DNA from: Gammaproteobacteria bacterium
Lineage (GTDB): Bacteria; Pseudomonadota; Gammaproteobacteria; Chromatiales; Chromatiaceae
DNA: 64,000 nucleotides
Reading direction: 5' to 3'
Assembly (NCBI GenBank): GCA_037385505.1
Contig: JARRMY010000001.1
Span: forward strand, 7,025-71,024
Shown here: positions 12,791-18,330 of the stretch, piece by piece
Layout: each line of letters opens with the position of its first letter
How positions within the stretch are numbered: the first letter of the stretch is position 1
The notes under the pieces: model-generated
Told to the model about the DNA's origin: nothing
Database searches by the model: none
The model's input: only the letters and a program-made list of their open reading frames with translations
Position numbers and translations under genes: made by a program

Positions 12791-13168
12791 CTATTCCAGC
12801 AGTTCCCGCATCTGCGCCTCGCCGGCCGGCTGCTGCAGCACGGCGTGGACAGGGAAGAGTTCCCTGAGCTTCTCCACATACGGCATCTCCTGCTTCGTCG
12901 CCAGGAGGATCACCCTGGCGTGCGGTGCGTATTTCGGCAGCGAAGCGAGCATGACGTCGAGGTTACTGAGGTTTACGCCGGCGTAGTTGTTGCCGTAACC
13001 GTAGAAGAACTCGGCGACGATGTAGTCGGGCGCGCGCTTCTTGAGCTGGCTGATGGCCTTGCGCATGCTTTCCACACGCACCTGTTCGAAGCCGAGACTC
13101 CTGTACAGCCCGCCGAAATTCGGATGCGTCGGTGACTCGATGATCGAGAGCAGCAGTCTGTCAGCCAT
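12791..13168 (-). CDS. Stand-alone receiver-fold-like protein (pseudo-receiver lacking the acid pocket)
   Basis: 125 aa. By-eye alignment to CheY gives beta1 LLLSIIES, beta3 DYIVAEFF, beta4 VILLATKQ and beta5 HAVLQQP. Lies 9 nt downstream of the coiled-coil gene. Confidence 0.45.
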   Translation of the reverse strand: MADRLLLSIIESPTHPNFGGLYRSLGFEQVRVESMRKAISQLKKRAPDYIVAEFFYGYGNNYAGVNLSNLDVMLASLPKYAPHARVILLATKQEMPYVEKLRELFPVHAVLQQPAGEAQMRELLE

Positions 13169-13177
13169 GTCGCGGAA

Positions 13178-14629
13178 TCAGGGGCACTCGTCCTGGCGGA
13201 AGTAGTAGTCGTACCTGTGCAGTCTCTGCGTCAGGCTCCAGGCCTTGCTGTGCGACAGGTTCTCGCCCTGCGGGAACACCACCTTGACGTAGAGATCGCT
13301 GCAGTGATCGCGCGAGGATTCCGCCAGCAGTGACTCTGCATCCTCGACGGAGAGCCAGCGAAAGGCGCTGTCCTCGGGGCGTTTCGTCAGGAAACCGTCC
13401 GCGCCATCCTGGCGCGTGTAGCGCATCTCGACAATGTACTTGCCCTGGTTCGTGCGCGCCGGCTTGAAGAGCTTGTCGTACTTCTGTTTCAGGTCGTCAT
13501 ACTCGGTCTCGAGTTCTGTCAGGTTCTGCTGCGAACTCGTGAAGCGCTGGCGGACCTCCTCGATCTCCTGCTGCCGGCTGGCGTAGTCCTGTTGCAGTGT
13601 CTCCAGTCTGGAGGTCGCCTCGGAGAGTTCGGCCTCCTTCCCGGACAGACTGCCTTGCAGCTTGCTGATCGATGCCGTCAGGGTTTCGAGCTGGTTCCTG
13701 AGTCGCTCGGTCTCGCGCTTGAGTTGCGAGCGTTCATCGCCGAGGGCGCCGATCGTCTCCTGCTGTTCCGCGAGGGCGGCATCCTTCTGCTGCGCAACGG
13801 CCCGCGCCTCGGTGAGCAGGTCGTTCGTGGTGGCGATCTGCTCGCGCAGGTTTGCGGCAAGCAGGTCCGATTTCTGCTGTTGCTCCTCGAGGTTGCTGAT
13901 CCGGATGTCGCGTTTCTGCAGCTCGTCCGCGAGCTGGCGATTGTCGCTTTCGAGCTGTTGCCTGCTCTGCTGCATGGCCTCGAGCTGGCTGCGGTATTGC
14001 GCGTTGCTGACGGTCATGCGTTCGAGTTGCGTGCGGGTGGCCTGGAGTTCATTCGTCGTCCGGTCGAGGTCGTCCCGGGTCGCCTCGAGCCTGCCACGGC
14101 TCGCTTCGAGTTGCTGGTCGACCTGCGCCTTCTGCTGCTGCAGCCTGTCGAGCCTGGTTGCGAGTTCATCGCTCCTCGTCGCCTGCTGCTGCAATTGCGC
14201 GGTGGCATTGGCGAGTTCCGCGTTGGTGCTGTCGAGCCGCTCCTGCAGGTTGTCGCGGTTCAGGATCAGCCCGCTCTTCTCGGTCTCGAGGGCCGTGATC
14301 GCCTGTTGCTGGCTTTCGGAGCGCGCGATGAGTTCATCGACGCTGTTCTGCAAGGTCGCGACGATGGCGCGGGTATCGGCGAGCTGTTTTTCGAGCGCCT
14401 CCTTGGCCTTGCCGACCTCGAGGGCCTCGGCGGTCGCCTGGCGCTCCGCCTCGAGTGTGAGCTGCAACCTGTTGACGAGTTCCGTGTTCTTCAGCAGCAG
14501 GATGATCATCGCGAGCAGGAAGATCATGACGATCACGGTCATGATATCCGTGAAGGAGGGCCAGAAACTCTCGTTGTGGTCGTCTCCCTCGCGGTTGAGT
14601 CGCAGGTCGACGAAGCCGCCGTCACTCAT
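13178..14629 (-). CDS. TolR/ExbD/MotB-like Asp-bearing membrane anchor fused to a long coiled coil and a small C-terminal domain
   Basis: 483 aa. N-terminal WPSFTDIMTVIVMIFLLAMIILLL, then about 330 aa of Q/E/L/R-rich heptad-like sequence, then about 100 aa containing the only two Cys residues. The start overlaps the upstream gene's stop by 8 nt. Confidence 0.6.
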   Translation of the reverse strand: MSDGGFVDLRLNREGDDHNESFWPSFTDIMTVIVMIFLLAMIILLLKNTELVNRLQLTLEAERQATAEALEVGKAKEALEKQLADTRAIVATLQNSVDELIARSESQQQAITALETEKSGLILNRDNLQERLDSTNAELANATAQLQQQATRSDELATRLDRLQQQKAQVDQQLEASRGRLEATRDDLDRTTNELQATRTQLERMTVSNAQYRSQLEAMQQSRQQLESDNRQLADELQKRDIRISNLEEQQQKSDLLAANLREQIATTNDLLTEARAVAQQKDAALAEQQETIGALGDERSQLKRETERLRNQLETLTASISKLQGSLSGKEAELSEATSRLETLQQDYASRQQEIEEVRQRFTSSQQNLTELETEYDDLKQKYDKLFKPARTNQGKYIVEMRYTRQDGADGFLTKRPEDSAFRWLSVEDAESLLAESSRDHCSDLYVKVVFPQGENLSHSKAWSLTQRLHRYDYYFRQDECP

Positions 14630-15557
14630 CTTTTTGCGATCCGAGCCTGAAACCGTCGCGCAGGATCTCCTTGACCTCGCTGAGGTCCCGGGGCATGGCT
14701 TCGGTCTGTTTCTTGAAGCTGACGGCCGCCTGCGCCATCGCCTCTTCCATGGACATGAACTGGTTGTGCGAGGCTTCCATCTTCCTGACGAGCTGCTGCA
14801 GCATGCGCAGCAGGCCCGTGAACTCGTAGATAACGTTGTCGTTCGTGACCTGGAACTTGGGTGCCAGGTACGCCGTGGTGGTCTGTTCGATGCCGCTCAT
14901 GAGATTCGTCTGCACGTTCGTCAGCTTCAGGTAGAAATAGCCAAAGTAGAGATAGCAGGCGATGGCCGTCATGGTCGTCGACAGCGCCGTCGACATGCCG
15001 TGGATGACCATGCCCATGCCGCCGGACTCGATGGAGTTCTCGAGCATGTCGGAGGCGCCGAGCAGGGCGATCGAGAGCGAGATGATCGTGCCGAAGACAC
15101 CGAGCAGGATCAGGATGTTGTTGATGAAGCGCGGCAGGTTCACGCGCGTGCTCTCCTGCGCCAGCAGCGCGGAGGCGAGGGCGCCGTGGTTGATGGGCGT
15201 GCGGCTCTCGTAGAGTCGCTGCATGGTAATGTAGCGACGGCTGATCATGCTGCTGGCCGGCACCTCGTGCAGGGGGTTCTGCGGCTCCTCCTGCATGTTG
15301 CGGATGAAACGGCCGAGCGCGCGCTCCTCGCGCGCGTAGCCGATCAGCGACGCCATGATCCGCAAGACGCCGAGCAGGAAGAGAATGACGATTGCGCTGT
15401 TGATGATGATACCGATCGCGGAGAGCGAGTGGTTCAGGTAGATCTCCTGAATATTGCCGAACTGCCATAAAATCAACGCGATTGCGATAGCGCCGAGCAG
15501 CAGCATCTGAATGAGCACCGAGCTGCTGTAACGGCGGCGATACTGAATGATGTCCAA
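14622..15557 (-). CDS. MotA/TolQ/ExbB-family proton-channel-like protein (4 TM)
   Basis: TM3-TM4 segment FINNILILLGVFGTIISLSIALLG...GMSTALSTTMTAIACYLYFGYF. Start is uncertain. TTG at 15557 has GGAGAG 7 nt upstream; the alternatives are ATG at 15599 (longest ORF) and ATG at 15506 (MLLLGAIAIALILW, MotA-like N-terminus). Confidence 0.6.
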   Translation of the reverse strand: MDIIQYRRRYSSSVLIQMLLLGAIAIALILWQFGNIQEIYLNHSLSAIGIIINSAIVILFLLGVLRIMASLIGYAREERALGRFIRNMQEEPQNPLHEVPASSMISRRYITMQRLYESRTPINHGALASALLAQESTRVNLPRFINNILILLGVFGTIISLSIALLGASDMLENSIESGGMGMVIHGMSTALSTTMTAIACYLYFGYFYLKLTNVQTNLMSGIEQTTTAYLAPKFQVTNDNVIYEFTGLLRMLQQLVRKMEASHNQFMSMEEAMAQAAVSFKKQTEAMPRDLSEVKEILRDGFRLGSQKDE

Positions 15558-15605
15558 ACCTGAACTCTCCGGTCGTAAATTCTGCGGAAATAGTATCATA
15601 GAAGC

Positions 15606-16847
15606 ATGCAGCCGATTCCAGGTCACGACATCAACGAAACGCGTACGCATCTGCTCGACTTCCTCGCCGCCGCGATCGCGGCCGTGGTTCCCGAAAGCGG
15701 CGTCAGGGAACGTCTCGAGAGAGAGAAAAGCGCGGCCCCGGGCTTTGCCGTCGCGGCCATTGGCAAGGCCGCCGGCATCATGATGCAAGGCGCGCTCGAG
15801 GCGCTCGGCGATGGCGTGTCAGATACACTCGTCATCACTGCGCCGGCCTACGCGGGCTCTGTGCCCGAAGGCGTCCGCTTCGTGGCCGGCAATCATCCGG
15901 TGCCCGATGCCTCGAGTCTCGCCGCGGGAGCGGCGTTGCTCGATTTCCTGGCAGCGCAGCCGCCGGAAATCGAGCTCGTTTTCCTGATCTCCGGCGGTGC
16001 CTCGGCGATGGTCGAGGCGCTCGAGCCGCATGTCACGCCGGATCAGCTGCAGCAGGCGACAGAGTGGATGCTCGCCAACGGGCTGGATATCCGGCAGACC
16101 AACCTCGTGCGCAAGTGTCTCTCGGCAATCAAGGGAGGCAAGCTGCTGCGCCATTTCGACAACGCAGCGCTGGTGTTGCTGGTCTCGGACGTCCCCGGTG
16201 ACGACCCTGCCGATATCGGGTCCGGACTCTTGTCGCCCGATCCGCGCATTTCGGAGGTGCAGTCGCTCCAGCTGCCGGCGTGGCTGCAGGATGTCGTCAG
16301 GGTCCCGGAAATCCCTGCCGGGCGCGACAATGTCCGGATCGAGATCATCGCCTCGAATGGCATCGCCCGGGAGGCGGCCGCGCAAGCGGCCAGGGAAGCG
16401 GGTTTTCCTGTCGAGGTTCACGCGGACTTCGTCTGCGGCGATACCGGCGAGGTTGCGCGCGAGATCGTGCGCTACCTGCTCGATGAGGCGCCGCCCGGCA
16501 TGCATGTGTGGGGCGGCGAGACCAGCGTCAGGCTGCCGCAGAATCCCGGTACGGGCGGCCGCAACCAGCAGCTCGCCCTGCAGGTCGCGCACCTCATCGC
16601 CGGAAGCGACAACTGCTGTTTCCTGTCGGCCGGAACGGATGGCATCGACGGCCTTTCAGAGGATGCCGGCGCCATCGTCGACGGAGGCACCATCGAGCGC
16701 GGCGAGAGCGAGGGGCTGCATGTCGAGGATGCGCTGGCGCGCGCCGATGCCAATCCTTTCCTCGCCGCCAGCGGCGACCTCATTCATCTCGGCGCGACCG
16801 GCACCAACGTCATGGATATCCTGCTTGCCTGGAAGAGCGACGCATGA
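15606..16847 (+). CDS. Glycerate 2-kinase / hydroxypyruvate reductase family protein (DUF4147 + MOFRL)
   Basis: 413 aa with AVAAIGKAAGIMMQGA near the N-terminus and GGETSVRLP..GTGGRNQQLAL in the C-terminal MOFRL-like part. Confidence 0.75.
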   Translation: MQPIPGHDINETRTHLLDFLAAAIAAVVPESGVRERLEREKSAAPGFAVAAIGKAAGIMMQGALEALGDGVSDTLVITAPAYAGSVPEGVRFVAGNHPVPDASSLAAGAALLDFLAAQPPEIELVFLISGGASAMVEALEPHVTPDQLQQATEWMLANGLDIRQTNLVRKCLSAIKGGKLLRHFDNAALVLLVSDVPGDDPADIGSGLLSPDPRISEVQSLQLPAWLQDVVRVPEIPAGRDNVRIEIIASNGIAREAAAQAAREAGFPVEVHADFVCGDTGEVAREIVRYLLDEAPPGMHVWGGETSVRLPQNPGTGGRNQQLALQVAHLIAGSDNCCFLSAGTDGIDGLSEDAGAIVDGGTIERGESEGLHVEDALARADANPFLAASGDLIHLGATGTNVMDILLAWKSDA

Positions 16848-17650
16848 CGGAACTCTTCGAGGCAGCGGCGCATTGCCTGCGCGAGACGCTTCCTGATGCC
16901 AAGTGCGACTGCACCGTGAGACTGTTCCGGCAGTGGCAGGCGGACGAGGTGACCCTCGGGCCGGACGACAAGGCGATCAGGATCGACGAGCCGGGAAGGC
17001 CGCAGCATCCCGAGCTGGTACACCCGCGGGACCTGCCGCGCCGCTCGCTCGGCAGCGACGAAGGCCGGGCCGCGCTGATTCATGCCATCGCGCACATCGA
17101 ATTCAACGCCATCAACCTGGCGCTCGATGCCATTGTGCGTTTTCGCGGCATGCCGCGCGACTACTACGGCGACTGGCTCAGGGTGGCGGCCGAGGAGGCC
17201 AGCCATTTCCGCCTGCTGTCGAGGCGTCTCGCGACACTCGGTTACGCCTACGGCGACTTCAAGGCGCACAACGGCCTCTGGGACATGGCGTTGCGCACGA
17301 GCGGCAGCCTGCTCGACCGCATGGCGCTGGTGCCTCGTCTCATGGAGGCGCGCGGTCTCGACGTGACGCCAGGCATGATCAAGCGCTTCAGGAAACTCGG
17401 CGATACGCAAACGGTCGCTATCCTCGAAATCATCCTCGAGGAGGAGATCGGCCATGTCGAGGCCGGCACGCGCTGGTTCCACTATCTCTGCGAGCGGGAG
17501 GGTCTCGACCCGGAAGAGAGCTATTTCGACAGGCTGCAGCACTATCTCGGCCGCGATCTCCACTGCCCCGTTCACTACGCGGCACGACTGCAGGCCGGCT
17601 TCTCCGAATCCGAACTCGAACGACTCGAGGAACTATGTACAAGACGCTGA
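16844..17650 (+). CDS. DUF455 ferritin-like family protein
   Basis: The ATG at 16844 overlaps the upstream stop (ATGA). HAIAHIEFNAINLALD and EEEIGHVEAG di-iron-like motifs. Confidence 0.65.
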   Translation: MTELFEAAAHCLRETLPDAKCDCTVRLFRQWQADEVTLGPDDKAIRIDEPGRPQHPELVHPRDLPRRSLGSDEGRAALIHAIAHIEFNAINLALDAIVRFRGMPRDYYGDWLRVAAEEASHFRLLSRRLATLGYAYGDFKAHNGLWDMALRTSGSLLDRMALVPRLMEARGLDVTPGMIKRFRKLGDTQTVAILEIILEEEIGHVEAGTRWFHYLCEREGLDPEESYFDRLQHYLGRDLHCPVHYAARLQAGFSESELERLEELCTRR

Positions 17651-18330
17651 TTTACCTACTTCTTATACCAGCCATGATGTTCGCCGCGCCAGCCGCGGCA
17701 GAAACGACCACTACCGATATCCTCGTCTACCGGGTCGAGCCCCGCGACGATTCGCAGGGCTATCTGGCGCGCGTCATGGTGTCTGGCGAGATGCTGCGCA
17801 TGGACGAGATCGGCGACGGGGCAGTGCCGGGCTACACGCTCTACGACCGCGTGGAGCGTTTGATCCTGAGTGTCGATCCGGAGAGCAGGAGCGTCATGCG
17901 GATCGGGCCAGCCACAGAAACGCCTTCCGACCGCGAGGTCGATTTCAGGGTCGAGAGCGAGACGCTCGAGGAGGCGCCAAGGGTCGCCGGCAAAATCCCT
18001 GTCGAATACACTTATGTCGTCAACGGGGAACCCTGCTTCACACTCATCGCCGTCGCTGGCGAAATGGCCGGCGCCATGCAGGCGCTGCGCGAGATGAGCG
18101 CCGCGCTGGCCGAGCGCCACCGGCGCGTCATCGGTTTGGCGAATGATGTCGATGACTGCAAGATGCCGCTCGATGCTTTCGCGCCGGGACAGGAGTACAG
18201 CCGGGGCCTGCTGCTGAGTTTCGTCGGCAGGAGCGAAGTCCGCCAGCTCGTCGAGTTCCAGCGTGGCATCGAGGTCGACGGCGACCTGTTCGAGGAACCG
18301 CCGGGATATCAGAGTCTGCAGATGCCATGA
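17635..18330 (+). CDS. Secreted hypothetical protein
   Basis: The ATG at 17635 gives a signal-peptide-like MYKTLIYLLLIPAMMFAAPAAA. Overlaps the DUF455 gene by 16 nt. The upstream part of the 16903 ORF is discounted. Confidence 0.55.
   Translation: MYKTLIYLLLIPAMMFAAPAAAETTTTDILVYRVEPRDDSQGYLARVMVSGEMLRMDEIGDGAVPGYTLYDRVERLILSVDPESRSVMRIGPATETPSDREVDFRVESETLEEAPRVAGKIPVEYTYVVNGEPCFTLIAVAGEMAGAMQALREMSAALAERHRRVIGLANDVDDCKMPLDAFAPGQEYSRGLLLSFVGRSEVRQLVEFQRGIEVDGDLFEEPPGYQSLQMP

What the first reader, a model, noticed from the sequence alone, without database searches (positions are those of the whole stretch)
13178..14629. TolR-like anchor and TolA-like rod in one polypeptide, with the only two cysteines in the terminal domain
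If the topology follows MotB/TolR (N-terminus in), everything after residue ~47 is periplasmic.

Residues ~50-385 (nt ~13475-14482) are almost uninterrupted Q/E/L/A/R heptad-like sequence. As a single helix this would be far longer than a periplasm is wide, which implies a hairpin, a bundle or an oblique rod.

The last ~100 aa (nt 13181-13474) form a distinct domain. It holds the protein's only two Cys residues (..RDHCSDLY.. and the terminal ..QDECP), which fits a disulfide in an oxidising compartment. It also contains ENLSHSKAWSLTQRL, which by eye resembles a degenerate OmpA/MotB peptidoglycan-binding helix (N..LS..RA..V...L) with Arg replaced by Lys.

An Asp-bearing stator anchor carrying its own TolA-sized spacer is an architecture I do not recognise.
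Basis: partly seen in the sequence, partly recalled or inferred. Interest (0 to 1): 0.7.

Follow-up and report, generated by a model that had tools for sequence, protein, structure and literature searches.

The report
Motor axle protein with long rod
This gene encodes the central "axle" subunit of an uncharacterised ion-driven membrane motor related to the flagellar, Tol and Ton motors; the axle continues without a break into a roughly 50 nm coiled-coil rod tipped by a small new domain, an arrangement not described for these motors.

Summary
Window 13178-14629 (-) encodes a 483-aa protein with three parts:
- a MotB/ZorB-type N-terminal membrane helix, whose Asp28 aligns with MotB Asp32;
- about 48 heptads of coiled coil in one unbroken register;
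- a folded C-terminal domain of about 95 aa holding the only two cysteines.

The gene overlaps by 8 nt an upstream gene whose predicted fold matches ExbB/TolQ/ZorA/MotA. This A-B pair occurs in about 430 species-level genomes, mostly marine sulfur-oxidising Gammaproteobacteria.

Rod length varies from about 24 to 70 heptads. It almost always changes by whole heptads: the Asp-to-domain distance is the same modulo 7 in 162 of 182 members.

There is no OmpA HMM or fold match, and the key Arg position is Glu in most members. The tip is a family-specific beta-beta-beta-alpha-beta-alpha domain with weak, recurrent resemblance to the TolR/ExbD periplasmic domain. The cysteine pair is present together or not at all (9 both, 0 single, 233 neither), so it is lineage-specific.

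Best reading: a new two-gene variant of the 5:2 motor family whose B dimer is itself a rigid periplasmic rod. It is a new variant of a known kind. The function is inferred, not shown.

The parts
14622..15557 (-). A subunit gene (311 aa from TTG 15557; an ATG at 15599 would give 325 aa). It has four predicted membrane helices and a C-terminal helix of about 65 aa ending in an invariant GFR motif.
   Evidence: - AlphaFold2 model pLDDT 80. In Foldseek against the PDB, almost all of the top 50 matches are ExbB, TolQ, ZorA, PomA or MotA, probability about 1.
- Pfam MotA_ExbB E 0.0055. hhalign against E. coli TolQ E 0.0032 and against ExbB E 0.012, over the GxFGT / ALxTT helices.
- Invariant T171, S203, T204, S207, T208, T209 (325-aa numbering).
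- A GGAGAG sequence lies upstream of TTG 15557.
14622..14629 (-). 8-nt overlap (ATGAGTGA) between the A stop codon and the B start codon
   Evidence: Sequence read directly. A lies immediately upstream of B in every locus where upstream DNA is available.
13178..14629 (-). B subunit gene, 483 aa (the finding)
   Evidence: ORF. An identical protein is annotated as hypothetical in a Gammaproteobacteria MAG.
14489..14629 (-). B residues 1-47: short cytoplasmic tail with invariant DLRLN, then the membrane helix ESFWPSFTD(28)IMTVIVMIF
   Evidence: This is the most conserved stretch of the family. It matches ZorB/MotB profiles and MotB D32.
14546..14548 (-). Codon of Asp28, the putative ion-binding residue
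   Evidence: Translated. Invariant in 20/20 aligned members. Aligned with MotB Asp32.
13466..14488 (-). B residues 48-388: conserved juxtamembrane helix running without a linker into about 48 heptads of coiled coil (~50 nm if straight)
   Evidence: One heptad register across residues 60-394, well beyond shuffled controls. Family length changes are in whole heptads, and the register is fixed relative to the Asp.
13181..13465 (-). B residues 389-483: family-specific C-terminal alpha/beta domain (strands 24-33, 36-42, 50-53, helix 54-67, strand 72-77, helix 86-97 in fragment numbering, then the conserved YDYYF)
   Evidence: - AlphaFold2 pLDDT 86.8.
- The profile finds 378 clusters among 1.84 billion representatives, and in the 150 best listed the domain is at the C-terminal end, followed by at most ~30 residues.
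- No significant PDB or Pfam relative.
13301..13303 (-). Codon of Cys443
   Evidence: It is present only together with the C-terminal Cys in the family.
13184..13186 (-). Codon of Cys482
12791..13168 (-). 125-aa ORF starting 9 nt after the B stop codon. Probably a third operon gene in this clade only.
   Evidence: Homologues sit directly downstream of B only in the window's own clade. No known family.

Best explanation
Genes 14622-15557 and 13178-14629 encode the A and B subunits of an uncharacterised two-gene member of the MotAB/ExbBD/TolQR/ZorAB superfamily of ion-driven 5:2 motors. The finding is the B subunit.

**Shown**
- B has a MotB/ZorB-type Asp-bearing membrane helix.
- A has the ExbB/TolQ-type fold, with the conserved Thr/Ser positions on its last two membrane helices.
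- The two genes are always adjacent and overlap.
- B continues from the membrane helix, with no flexible linker, into an unbroken heptad coiled coil. The register of that coil is fixed relative to the Asp, and its length changes between species by whole heptads.
- B ends in a conserved domain that is not OmpA-like.

**Inferred**
- Five A subunits surround two B subunits.
- The B N-terminus is cytoplasmic, so the two B chains leave the A ring as a parallel two-stranded rod in the periplasm. The rod would be about 25-30 nm in most family members, roughly the width of a Gram-negative periplasm, and about 50 nm here.
- The tip domain, possibly a displaced TolR/ExbD-type domain, docks on a wall- or outer-membrane-proximal target.
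- Ion flow at Asp28 turns the A ring relative to the B dimer. Because the rod is a rigid in-register extension of the axle, the motor is mechanically coupled to that distant site. In effect B combines the jobs that TolR and TolA, or ExbD and TonB, share between two proteins.

Whether the rod mainly transmits force or torque outward, or mainly holds the axle still while the A ring turns, is not decided by the data.
For: **B N-terminus**
- NCBIfam ZorB1 8.3e-7, and PRK09039 3.8e-9 over residues 13-185.
- PADLOC ZorB 5e-7.
- PDB ZorB chains 8vvn, 8qyd and 8vvi, identified as Zorya structures in PMC11890865.
- hhalign against E. coli MotB E 0.0085, with D28 on D32.

**A subunit**
- Foldseek top 50 almost entirely ExbB/TolQ/ZorA/PomA/MotA.
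- hhalign against TolQ 0.0032 and ExbB 0.012.
- Lys/Arg are confined to the N-terminus, the loop between helices 2 and 3, and the C-terminus, with none in the two short loops. This gives MotA-like topology.

**Pairing**
- A lies directly upstream of B in all loci with upstream sequence, out of 87 loci, with an 8-nt overlap.

**Rod**
- One register over residues 60-394, 99% of windows against at most 47% in shuffles.
- Asp-to-RPAR distance is 4 mod 7 in 162 of 182 members, and the register relative to the Asp is the same in 176 of 182.
- No Pro in the coil.
- The 14-residue length difference between two relatives is a single tandem duplication.

**Tip and distribution**
- Confident model. In the 150 best hits listed the domain is at the C-terminal end.
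- The Cys pair is present together or not at all, 9/0/233, and 253 of 266 members have no Cys.
- 433 species-level genomes carry the family.
- Precedent for a B-type Asp helix fused to a periplasmic effector: PMC12204202.
Against: - No experiment and no complex model. Stoichiometry, topology and strand orientation of the coil are all inferred.
- Rods of 43-73 nm, in this clade and in Solemya symbionts, are far longer than a normal periplasm. Strains of one symbiont differ by 84 aa. This fits poorly with a rod that must exactly bridge two fixed layers.
- No conserved outer-membrane or wall partner gene is found beside the pair. The neighbours look like housekeeping synteny.
- The tip has no statistically significant relative, so its binding target is unknown.
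- The A subunit has strongly conserved cytoplasmic parts and an invariant C-terminal GFR motif, which could mean the real output is cytoplasmic.
Confidence: 0.55

Rival explanations
1. Anchored stator with a cytoplasmic output. The tip domain binds peptidoglycan, as reported for TolR and MotB, and simply fixes the B dimer. The A ring is what turns, and its C-terminal helices do the work in the cytoplasm, as a short version of the ZorA tail. The rod is only a tether.
For: - The A subunit's cytoplasmic loop and its C-terminal helix tip (invariant G316, F317, R318) are highly conserved.
- ZorA chains are among the Foldseek hits, with the longest alignments at 274-302 columns.
- The tip shows weak TolR/ExbD-like signals.
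- A clade-specific cytoplasmic 125-aa protein, or a response regulator, follows B in some lineages.
Against: - A 25-73 nm rigid rod is unnecessary for reaching the wall, which lies much closer to the inner membrane (general knowledge).
- Strict preservation of register along the whole rod suggests that its mechanics matter.
- No peptidoglycan-binding signature was found.
Confidence: 0.25
2. The coil folds back on itself as an antiparallel hairpin or four-helix bundle, so the tip domain sits on top of the motor as the TolR/ExbD domain does. The coil is then a protrusion, not a spacer.
For:
- The commonest family lengths differ by 14 residues (193, 207, 221), which could mean one heptad per arm.
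Against: - No register break, no Pro, and no conserved Gly-rich turn anywhere in residues 60-394.
- The 14-residue difference between P0023 and P0028 is one contiguous tandem duplication, not two symmetric insertions.
- Solemya symbiont repeats are tandem 14-mers.
- Steps of 7 residues also occur (200, 214).
Confidence: 0.1
3. One reading: the C-terminal domain is a degenerate OmpA/MotB-type peptidoglycan-binding domain stabilised by a disulfide.
For: - From LS onward the window matches the OmpA helix motif as LS..KA..L...L, and the family consensus N-xx-LS-xx-EA has the same spacing as N..LS..RA.
- The strand-loop-helix arrangement around the motif is compatible.
Against: - No PF00691 hit in 91 domain sequences, even at E up to 10.
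- No OmpA-like chain in the Foldseek top 50, although many are in the PDB.
- The Arg position is Lys here and Glu in at least 90% of aligned members, and the preceding TD is FP.
- The domain ends right after the helix, so it lacks the last two strands of the OmpA-like fold.
- The Cys pair is in only 9 of 242 members.
Confidence: 0.05
4. A Zorya-like or other anti-phage sensor built on a ZorAB-type motor.
For: The best sequence matches of the B N-terminus are ZorB models and ZorB structures.
Against: - Scores are far below the family cut-offs: 28.7 bits against a 400-bit cut-off.
- A is 311 aa, with no long tail.
- There is no ZorC/D/E/F/G-like gene nearby.
- The pair sits in conserved housekeeping synteny across genera, not in variable islands.
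Confidence: 0.03

Closest known systems
TolQ-TolR-TolA (Tol-Pal motor) and ExbB-ExbD-TonB
   Same: - The A fold is closest to ExbB/TolQ in Foldseek.
- The B subunit has an Asp-bearing single membrane helix.
- The B tip has the same order of strands and helices as the TolR periplasmic domain, with weak ExbD Pfam hits.
- A long helical periplasmic element is present.
   Different: - There is no separate TolA/TonB gene. The long helical element is part of B itself and is a canonical heptad coiled coil, not the Ala/Lys-rich or Pro-rich spacers of TolA/TonB.
- A has four membrane helices, not three.
- No tolB/pal/cpoB or TonB-dependent receptor context.
Flagellar MotAB/PomAB stator
   Same: - The B membrane helix motif W..F.D.MT aligns with MotB, D28 on D32.
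- Four-helix A topology.
- Adjacent overlapping genes.
   Different: - No OmpA-like domain, and no plug-plus-flexible-linker.
- A lacks the large cytoplasmic torque-generating domain.
- Not in a flagellar gene cluster.
ZorAB (Zorya)
   Same: - Best-scoring profiles and solved chains for the B N-terminus.
- A long coiled coil is attached to the motor.
   Different: - In Zorya the coiled coil is the cytoplasmic tail of ZorA (five strands). Here it is on B (two chains) and is predicted to be periplasmic.
- No peptidoglycan-binding domain of the ZorB type, no effector genes, and no defence-island context.
GldLM / PorLM (type 9 secretion and gliding motor)
   Same: By analogy only: the two-copy central subunit forms a long periplasm-spanning shaft thought to carry motor output to the outer membrane (my knowledge of the published structures).
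   Different: - No detectable sequence or fold relation.
- GldM is built of globular domains, not a coiled coil, and uses a different charged-residue arrangement.
Asp-helix-vWA fusion proteins next to tolQ-like genes (PMC12204202)
   Same: A TolR/ExbD-like Asp-bearing helix is fused directly to a periplasmic effector, paired with a TolQ-like gene and with no separate TolR. These were proposed to couple the motor directly to the outer membrane.
   Different: - The effector there is a vWA domain, and those genes usually come in heterologous pairs.
- Here there is a single B gene, a coiled-coil rod and a different tip domain.
NCBIfam PRK09039 'peptidoglycan-binding protein' (NF006543/NF006542)
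   Same: The profile matches residues 13-185 (E 3.8e-9), that is, the membrane helix plus the start of the coiled coil. So a MotB-type anchor followed by a coiled coil is already an annotated architecture.
   Different: - Going by its name and my recollection, that family ends in an OmpA-type domain and has a much shorter coil. I did not verify this here.
- The score is far below the family cut-off (36.8 against 305 bits).

Membership tests
MotAB/ExbBD/TolQR/ZorAB superfamily (5:2 ion-driven motors) | A subunit with the MotA/ExbB/TolQ membrane fold | tested here: met
   - Foldseek top 50 almost all ExbB/TolQ/ZorA/PomA/MotA, probability about 1, E 2e-3 to 0.3.
- hhalign against TolQ 0.0032 and ExbB 0.012.
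- Pfam MotA_ExbB only E 0.0055, below the cut-off.
- An HMMER profile of the A family found no ExbB/TolQ/MotA/ZorA chain in the PDB at E up to 10.
MotAB/ExbBD/TolQR/ZorAB superfamily (5:2 ion-driven motors) | B subunit with one N-terminal membrane helix carrying a conserved Asp near its cytoplasmic end | tested here: met
   D28 is invariant and aligns with MotB D32. ZorB profiles and chains match residues 12-80.
MotAB/ExbBD/TolQR/ZorAB superfamily (5:2 ion-driven motors) | Conserved Thr/Ser on the last two A helices facing the Asp | tested here: met
   Invariant GVFGT171 and S203, T204, S207, T208, T209, aligned on TolQ/ExbB GLFGT and AEAL.AT. That these residues face the Asp is inferred.
MotAB/ExbBD/TolQR/ZorAB superfamily (5:2 ion-driven motors) | Adjacent, co-transcribed A and B genes | tested here: met
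   A is directly upstream of B in all loci with upstream DNA, with an 8-nt overlap here.
MotAB/ExbBD/TolQR/ZorAB superfamily (5:2 ion-driven motors) | A5B2 stoichiometry and ion-driven relative rotation | not testable with these tools
   No multimer prediction or experiment was available.
OmpA-like peptidoglycan-binding domain (PF00691) | Match to the OmpA family profile | tested here: not met
   No hit in the full protein or in 33+58 C-terminal domain sequences at E up to 10.
OmpA-like peptidoglycan-binding domain (PF00691) | Beta-alpha-beta-alpha-beta-beta fold like the MotB-C, Pal or OmpA C-terminal domain | tested here: not met
   The model is beta-beta-beta-alpha-beta-alpha and ends after the second helix. 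No OmpA-like chain appears in the Foldseek top 50.
OmpA-like peptidoglycan-binding domain (PF00691) | Conserved Asp and Arg of the TD...N..LS..RA motif that bind the peptide stem | tested here: not met
   The Arg position is Lys462 here and Glu in at least 90% of aligned members. TD is replaced by FP.
TolR/ExbD periplasmic domain (PF02472) | Match to the ExbD/TolR profile | tested here: inconclusive
   - 1 of 33 and 6 of 58 domain sequences hit PF02472 at E 0.009-0.08, below any cut-off.
- hhalign against E. coli ExbD gives E 0.12 and against TolR E 0.05-0.5, always on the same strand-helix elements.
TolR/ExbD periplasmic domain (PF02472) | Same fold as solved TolR/ExbD periplasmic domains | tested here: inconclusive
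   H. influenzae TolR (2jwk) is at rank 43: probability 0.84, TM 0.46/0.62, rmsd 3.6 over 81 columns, E 0.26. Ribosomal uS11 and RNase-H-like folds score similarly.
Tol-Pal / Ton systems | Separate TolA/TonB-type transducer gene with the motor genes | tested here: not met
   No recurrent third membrane-protein gene was found among neighbours in 83 loci.
Zorya anti-phage system | ZorA with a long C-terminal tail, ZorB with a peptidoglycan-binding domain, plus ZorC/D, ZorE or ZorF/G | tested here: not met
   - A is 311 aa, and B has no such domain.
- The 125-aa protein downstream of B has no PADLOC hit.
- Neighbours are housekeeping genes.
- ZorB1 scores 28.7 bits against a 400-bit cut-off.
Flagellar MotAB/PomAB stator | OmpA-like C-terminal domain, plug plus flexible linker, flagellar gene context | tested here: not met
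   - No OmpA domain.
- The coil starts directly after the membrane helix.
- The context is MOFRL/DUF455 and methionine-salvage genes.

The most novel reading that the evidence does not exclude
The B dimer is a rotating or tension-bearing drive shaft. The membrane axle of a 5:2 motor would be extended, rigidly and in register, as a two-stranded coiled coil across the whole periplasm to the outer membrane. It would deliver proton-motive energy there without any TonB/TolA-type partner. This would be a third, self-contained way of energising the outer envelope, found in chemosynthetic symbionts and their free-living relatives. It would also be a natural handle for watching a 5:2 axle turn.
Probability: 0.2. 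Interest if true: 0.85.

Novelty: new variant of a known kind. Interest (0 to 1): 0.6.

Why it matters
The 5:2 motors (flagellar stator, Ton, Tol, gliding/T9SS, Zorya) are under intense structural study. Open questions include which part actually turns, and how motion in the inner membrane reaches distant targets.

In all well-studied members, the B subunit is joined to its periplasmic domain by a short flexible linker. This family instead has a long, stiff, register-preserved coiled coil fused directly to the axle helix. That gives three things:
- it suggests a motor that carries its own transducer;
- it provides a natural length series (24-70 heptads) for testing how distance and phase matter;
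- it provides a built-in lever arm that could be labelled at the tip to observe axle rotation directly.

The family occurs in about 430 species, including the cultured Sedimenticola selenatireducens and the sulfur-oxidising symbionts of lucinid and Solemya clams, so it is testable. I found no paper describing it in the held library.

Tried and rejected
- **OmpA-like tip: rejected**.
- **HMM profile of the tip against PDB sequences:** only chance-level hits, thioesterase I and Naa60 at E 0.1-0.5.
- **Full-length profile against the PDB:** swamped by myosin and tropomyosin coiled-coil hits, so uninformative.
- **Foldseek of the tip against viral structures:** nothing.
- **HMMER profile of the A family against the PDB:** nothing. 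Only fold search and hhalign detect the relationship.
- **Pfam MotB_plug:** only E 0.12 for a Sedimenticola member and no hit for the window protein.
- **Tandem repeats in the window's coil DNA:** none, so the extra length here is not a recent duplication.
- **The 125-aa downstream protein:** no family, and the profile against the PDB found nothing. My guess of a receiver-like fold rests only on a PhoB hit at E 0.21.
- **A conserved outer-membrane or wall partner gene next to the pair:** none found. Recurrent neighbours are DUF455, MOFRL, an exported 231-aa protein, LpxH-like, cyclophilin and TsaB, which look like synteny.
- **A TolR/ExbD profile built from fetched loci:** too few homologues were present.
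- **Literature searches** for this architecture found no description.
- **One protein homologue search was left unused:** its top hits would have been family members or close E. coli relatives.
Full report
**What is there**

Window 13178-14629 (-) is an ORF of 483 aa. Its start codon overlaps, by 8 nt (ATGAGTGA), the stop codon of an upstream ORF on the same strand. A 125-aa ORF follows 9 nt after its stop.

The protein has three parts:
- **Residues 1-47:** a short tail and one hydrophobic helix, ESFWPSFTD(28)IMTVIVMIFLL.
- **Residues about 48-388:** 61% Q/E/L/A/R, with no proline.
- **Residues 389-483:** a separate domain containing the only two cysteines, C443 and C482.

**The coiled coil is real and unusually regular**

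A simple heptad-phase scan (hydrophobic a/d positions, 28-residue windows) puts residues 60-394 in one register. There is only a one-window blip. 99% of windows share the register, against a mean of 27% and a maximum of 47% in 300 shuffles of the same residues. Written out as heptads, 40 of the 48 leucines of residues 50-385 fall at a or d. If straight, about 335 residues at 0.1485 nm each give about 50 nm.

**The N-terminus is a MotB/ZorB-type axle helix**

- Residues 12-80 match NCBIfam ZorB1 (8.3e-7) and PADLOC ZorB models (5e-7).
- They also match the solved ZorB chains 8vvn, 8qyd and 8vvi, which PMC11890865 identifies as Zorya type I/II structures.
- A family profile aligned with E. coli MotB gives E 0.0085, with Asp28 on MotB Asp32.
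- NCBIfam PRK09039 'peptidoglycan-binding protein' matches residues 13-185 (3.8e-9). A MotB-type anchor followed by a coil is therefore not unprecedented.
- All these scores are far below the families' own cut-offs. Pfam MotB_plug is only marginal.

This is a distant relative, not a member of any of those named families.

**The partner is an ExbB/TolQ/MotA-type protein**

The upstream gene most likely starts at TTG 15557 (311 aa, GGAGAG upstream, same as the NCBI call). It has only a weak Pfam MotA_ExbB hit, and an HMMER profile finds nothing in the PDB.

Its AlphaFold2 model (pLDDT 80) tells a different story. Almost all of the top 50 Foldseek matches are ExbB, TolQ, ZorA, PomA and MotA. hhalign against E. 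coli TolQ and ExbB aligns the GxFGT and ALxTT helices (E 0.0032 and 0.012). The Thr/Ser positions on those helices are invariant.

Lys/Arg are confined to the N-terminus, the long loop between helices 2 and 3, and the C-terminus. The two short loops have none. This gives a MotA-like N-in, four-helix topology. By homology it places the B N-terminus in the cytoplasm and everything after residue 47 in the periplasm. That topology is inferred, not measured.

**A conserved family**

The B protein has hundreds of relatives. A profile of the tip domain finds 378 clusters (at 50% identity) among 1.84 billion representatives. In the 150 best hits listed, the domain is at the C-terminal end, followed by at most ~30 residues.

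A scan of one genome per species finds 433 genomes. Among the 80 best loci that were listed, these are Gammaproteobacteria, plus some Zetaproteobacteria. The gammaproteobacterial groups seen include:
- Chromatiales and Sedimenticolaceae
- Candidatus Thiodiazotropha and the Solemya symbiont
- Thiotrichales and Thiohalomonadaceae

The cultured Sedimenticola selenatireducens carries it. In all 87 loci examined, wherever upstream DNA exists, the A gene sits directly upstream of B. No third gene is universal.

**The rod changes length in whole heptads**

Family members range from about 300 to 631 aa, and nearly all the difference is in the coil.
- The distance from the Asp to the conserved RPAR motif at the start of the tip is 4 modulo 7 in 162 of 182 members.
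- The heptad register relative to the Asp is the same in 176 of 182.
- The median member has 94% of its coil in one register.

The sequences are related, so these are not independent trials. Even so, many distinct lengths occur (179, 186, 193, 200, 207, 214, 221 ... 428, 512). The common lengths (193, 207, 221) correspond to rods of about 25-30 nm. From general knowledge, that is about the width of a Gram-negative periplasm.

The window's clade and the Solemya symbionts have 43-73 nm rods. Two Solemya symbiont strains differ by 84 aa through 14-residue tandem repeats. The window's own coil has no DNA tandem repeat.

The conserved juxtamembrane residues (N48, L51, L55, T58, E62) continue the same pattern, so there is no flexible linker between axle helix and rod. 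MotB's membrane dimer has itself been modelled as a coiled coil (PMC10659934). Here that coil appears to run on outside the membrane.

**The tip domain**

AlphaFold2, using a 75-sequence alignment, gives a confident model (pLDDT 86.8, pTM 0.75). It has three strands, a helix, a strand and a helix, followed by the conserved YDYYF.

The search results were:
- Foldseek finds nothing significant in the PDB or among viral models.
- No OmpA-like structure is in the top 50.
- No OmpA Pfam hit occurs in 91 domain sequences.

The OmpA reading is therefore rejected.

The only recurrent hint is TolR/ExbD:
- H. influenzae TolR (2jwk) appears with probability 0.84 and TM 0.62 on the target.
- Pfam ExbD is hit weakly by 1 of 33 and 6 of 58 members.
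- hhalign against E. coli TolR and ExbD repeatedly aligns the same helix-strand-helix elements, including the terminal LH, at E 0.05-0.5.

The order of strands and helices is the same as in TolR. This is suggestive only. If it is true, the protein is a TolR/ExbD-like B subunit with a long coil inserted between helix and periplasmic domain.

**The cysteines**

Of 242 members with both motif positions, 233 have neither cysteine, 9 have both and none has only one. 253 of 266 family proteins have no cysteine at all. The nine belong to the window's clade and the Solemya symbionts, so this may reflect only one or two evolutionary events.

The perfect co-occurrence supports a disulfide, and hence an oxidising compartment, in this lineage. 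It is not a defining feature of the family. I could not measure the distance between the two cysteines in the model.

**Context**

The pair sits divergently from a tight operon of three genes:
- a MOFRL/DUF4147 protein (15606-16847),
- DUF455 (16844-17650),
- an exported 231-aa protein (17635-18330).

DUF455, often with the others, is in that position in about 30 of 83 loci across genera. Other recurrent neighbours (LpxH-like, cyclophilin, TsaB) look like housekeeping synteny. Genes downstream of B are lineage-specific:
- the 125-aa protein in the window's clade;
- two Slp lipoproteins in Thiodiazotropha;
- a response regulator and a GGDEF protein in Sedimenticola.

Nothing suggests a defence island.

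**Mechanism**

The following are shown:
- both subunits belong to the superfamily;
- they are always paired;
- the Asp and the Thr/Ser positions are conserved;
- the rod is continuous and keeps its register;
- the tip is conserved and not OmpA-like.

The rest is inferred. Five A subunits would surround two B subunits. A parallel two-stranded rod would extend into the periplasm. The tip would dock on a wall- or outer-membrane-proximal target. Ion flow would turn A relative to B, and the rod would couple that motion, or the anchoring, to the distant site.

I favour the view that B combines the TolR and TolA roles. PMC12204202 has proposed an analogous idea for Asp-helix-vWA fusions.

The main rival is that the tip merely anchors B while the A ring's conserved cytoplasmic helices are the output, as in Zorya. 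The very long and strain-variable rods argue against a precise bridge, and that remains unexplained. A fold-back hairpin is disfavoured, because there is no break in register and a length difference seen between two relatives is a one-site tandem duplication.

**Novelty**

Searches of the held literature found surveys of MotAB and ExbBD homologues (PMC12505986, PMC12204202, PMC9389320) but no description of a B subunit with a long coiled coil or of this tip domain.

It is a new variant of a known kind of machine.

Noticed in passing
window 12791-13168 (-): A 125-aa ORF starts 9 nt after the B stop codon. Homologues sit directly downstream of B only in the window's own clade, which is also the clade with the longest rods (B of 430-530 aa). 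It has no Pfam, NCBIfam, PADLOC or PDB relative. The best PDB hit is the PhoB receiver domain at E 0.21.
   Followed up: partly
window 15606-18330 (+): A tight operon of MOFRL/DUF4147 (15606-16847), DUF455 (16844-17650, 4-nt overlap) and an exported 231-aa protein with no known family (17635-18330, 16-nt overlap). It is divergent from the A-B pair. DUF455, often with the other two, holds this position in about 30 of 83 loci across genera. Whether this is a functional link or only synteny is unknown.
   Followed up: partly
L006/L007 6001-7644 and proteins P0007-P0009: Solemya velum symbiont strains carry B proteins of 547 and 631 aa. The 84-aa difference is six 14-residue units, and a 42-nt tandem repeat is detectable in the DNA. 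Rod length therefore varies within one symbiont species.
   Followed up: partly
L004 7094-8181 (and 13 other Thiodiazotropha-type loci): Two Slp-family outer-membrane lipoprotein genes lie directly downstream of B on the same strand. They could be a lineage-specific outer-membrane partner, or only neighbours.
   Followed up: no
L001 7217-9171: In Sedimenticola the genes after B encode a response regulator with a faint CheX-like hit, and then a GGDEF protein. This hints at a possible regulatory link to c-di-GMP signalling in that lineage.
   Followed up: no
L015: A contig labelled 'Candidatus Bathyarchaeota archaeon' MAG carries this proteobacterial A-B pair at 57-76% identity to the window proteins. 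It is probably a binning contaminant.
   Followed up: no
window 14622-15599 (-): The A gene most likely starts at TTG 15557 (GGAGAG upstream, 311 aa, same as the NCBI call), not at ATG 15599 or the TTG at 15788 of the mechanical ORF. That leaves only about 48 nt between the divergent start codons.
   Followed up: yes
A subunit residues 313-318 (325-aa numbering), window about 14646-14663: The extreme C-terminus of the A subunit carries an invariant L...GFR motif at the end of a helix of about 65 residues. This suggests a conserved cytoplasmic contact of unknown partner.
   Followed up: no
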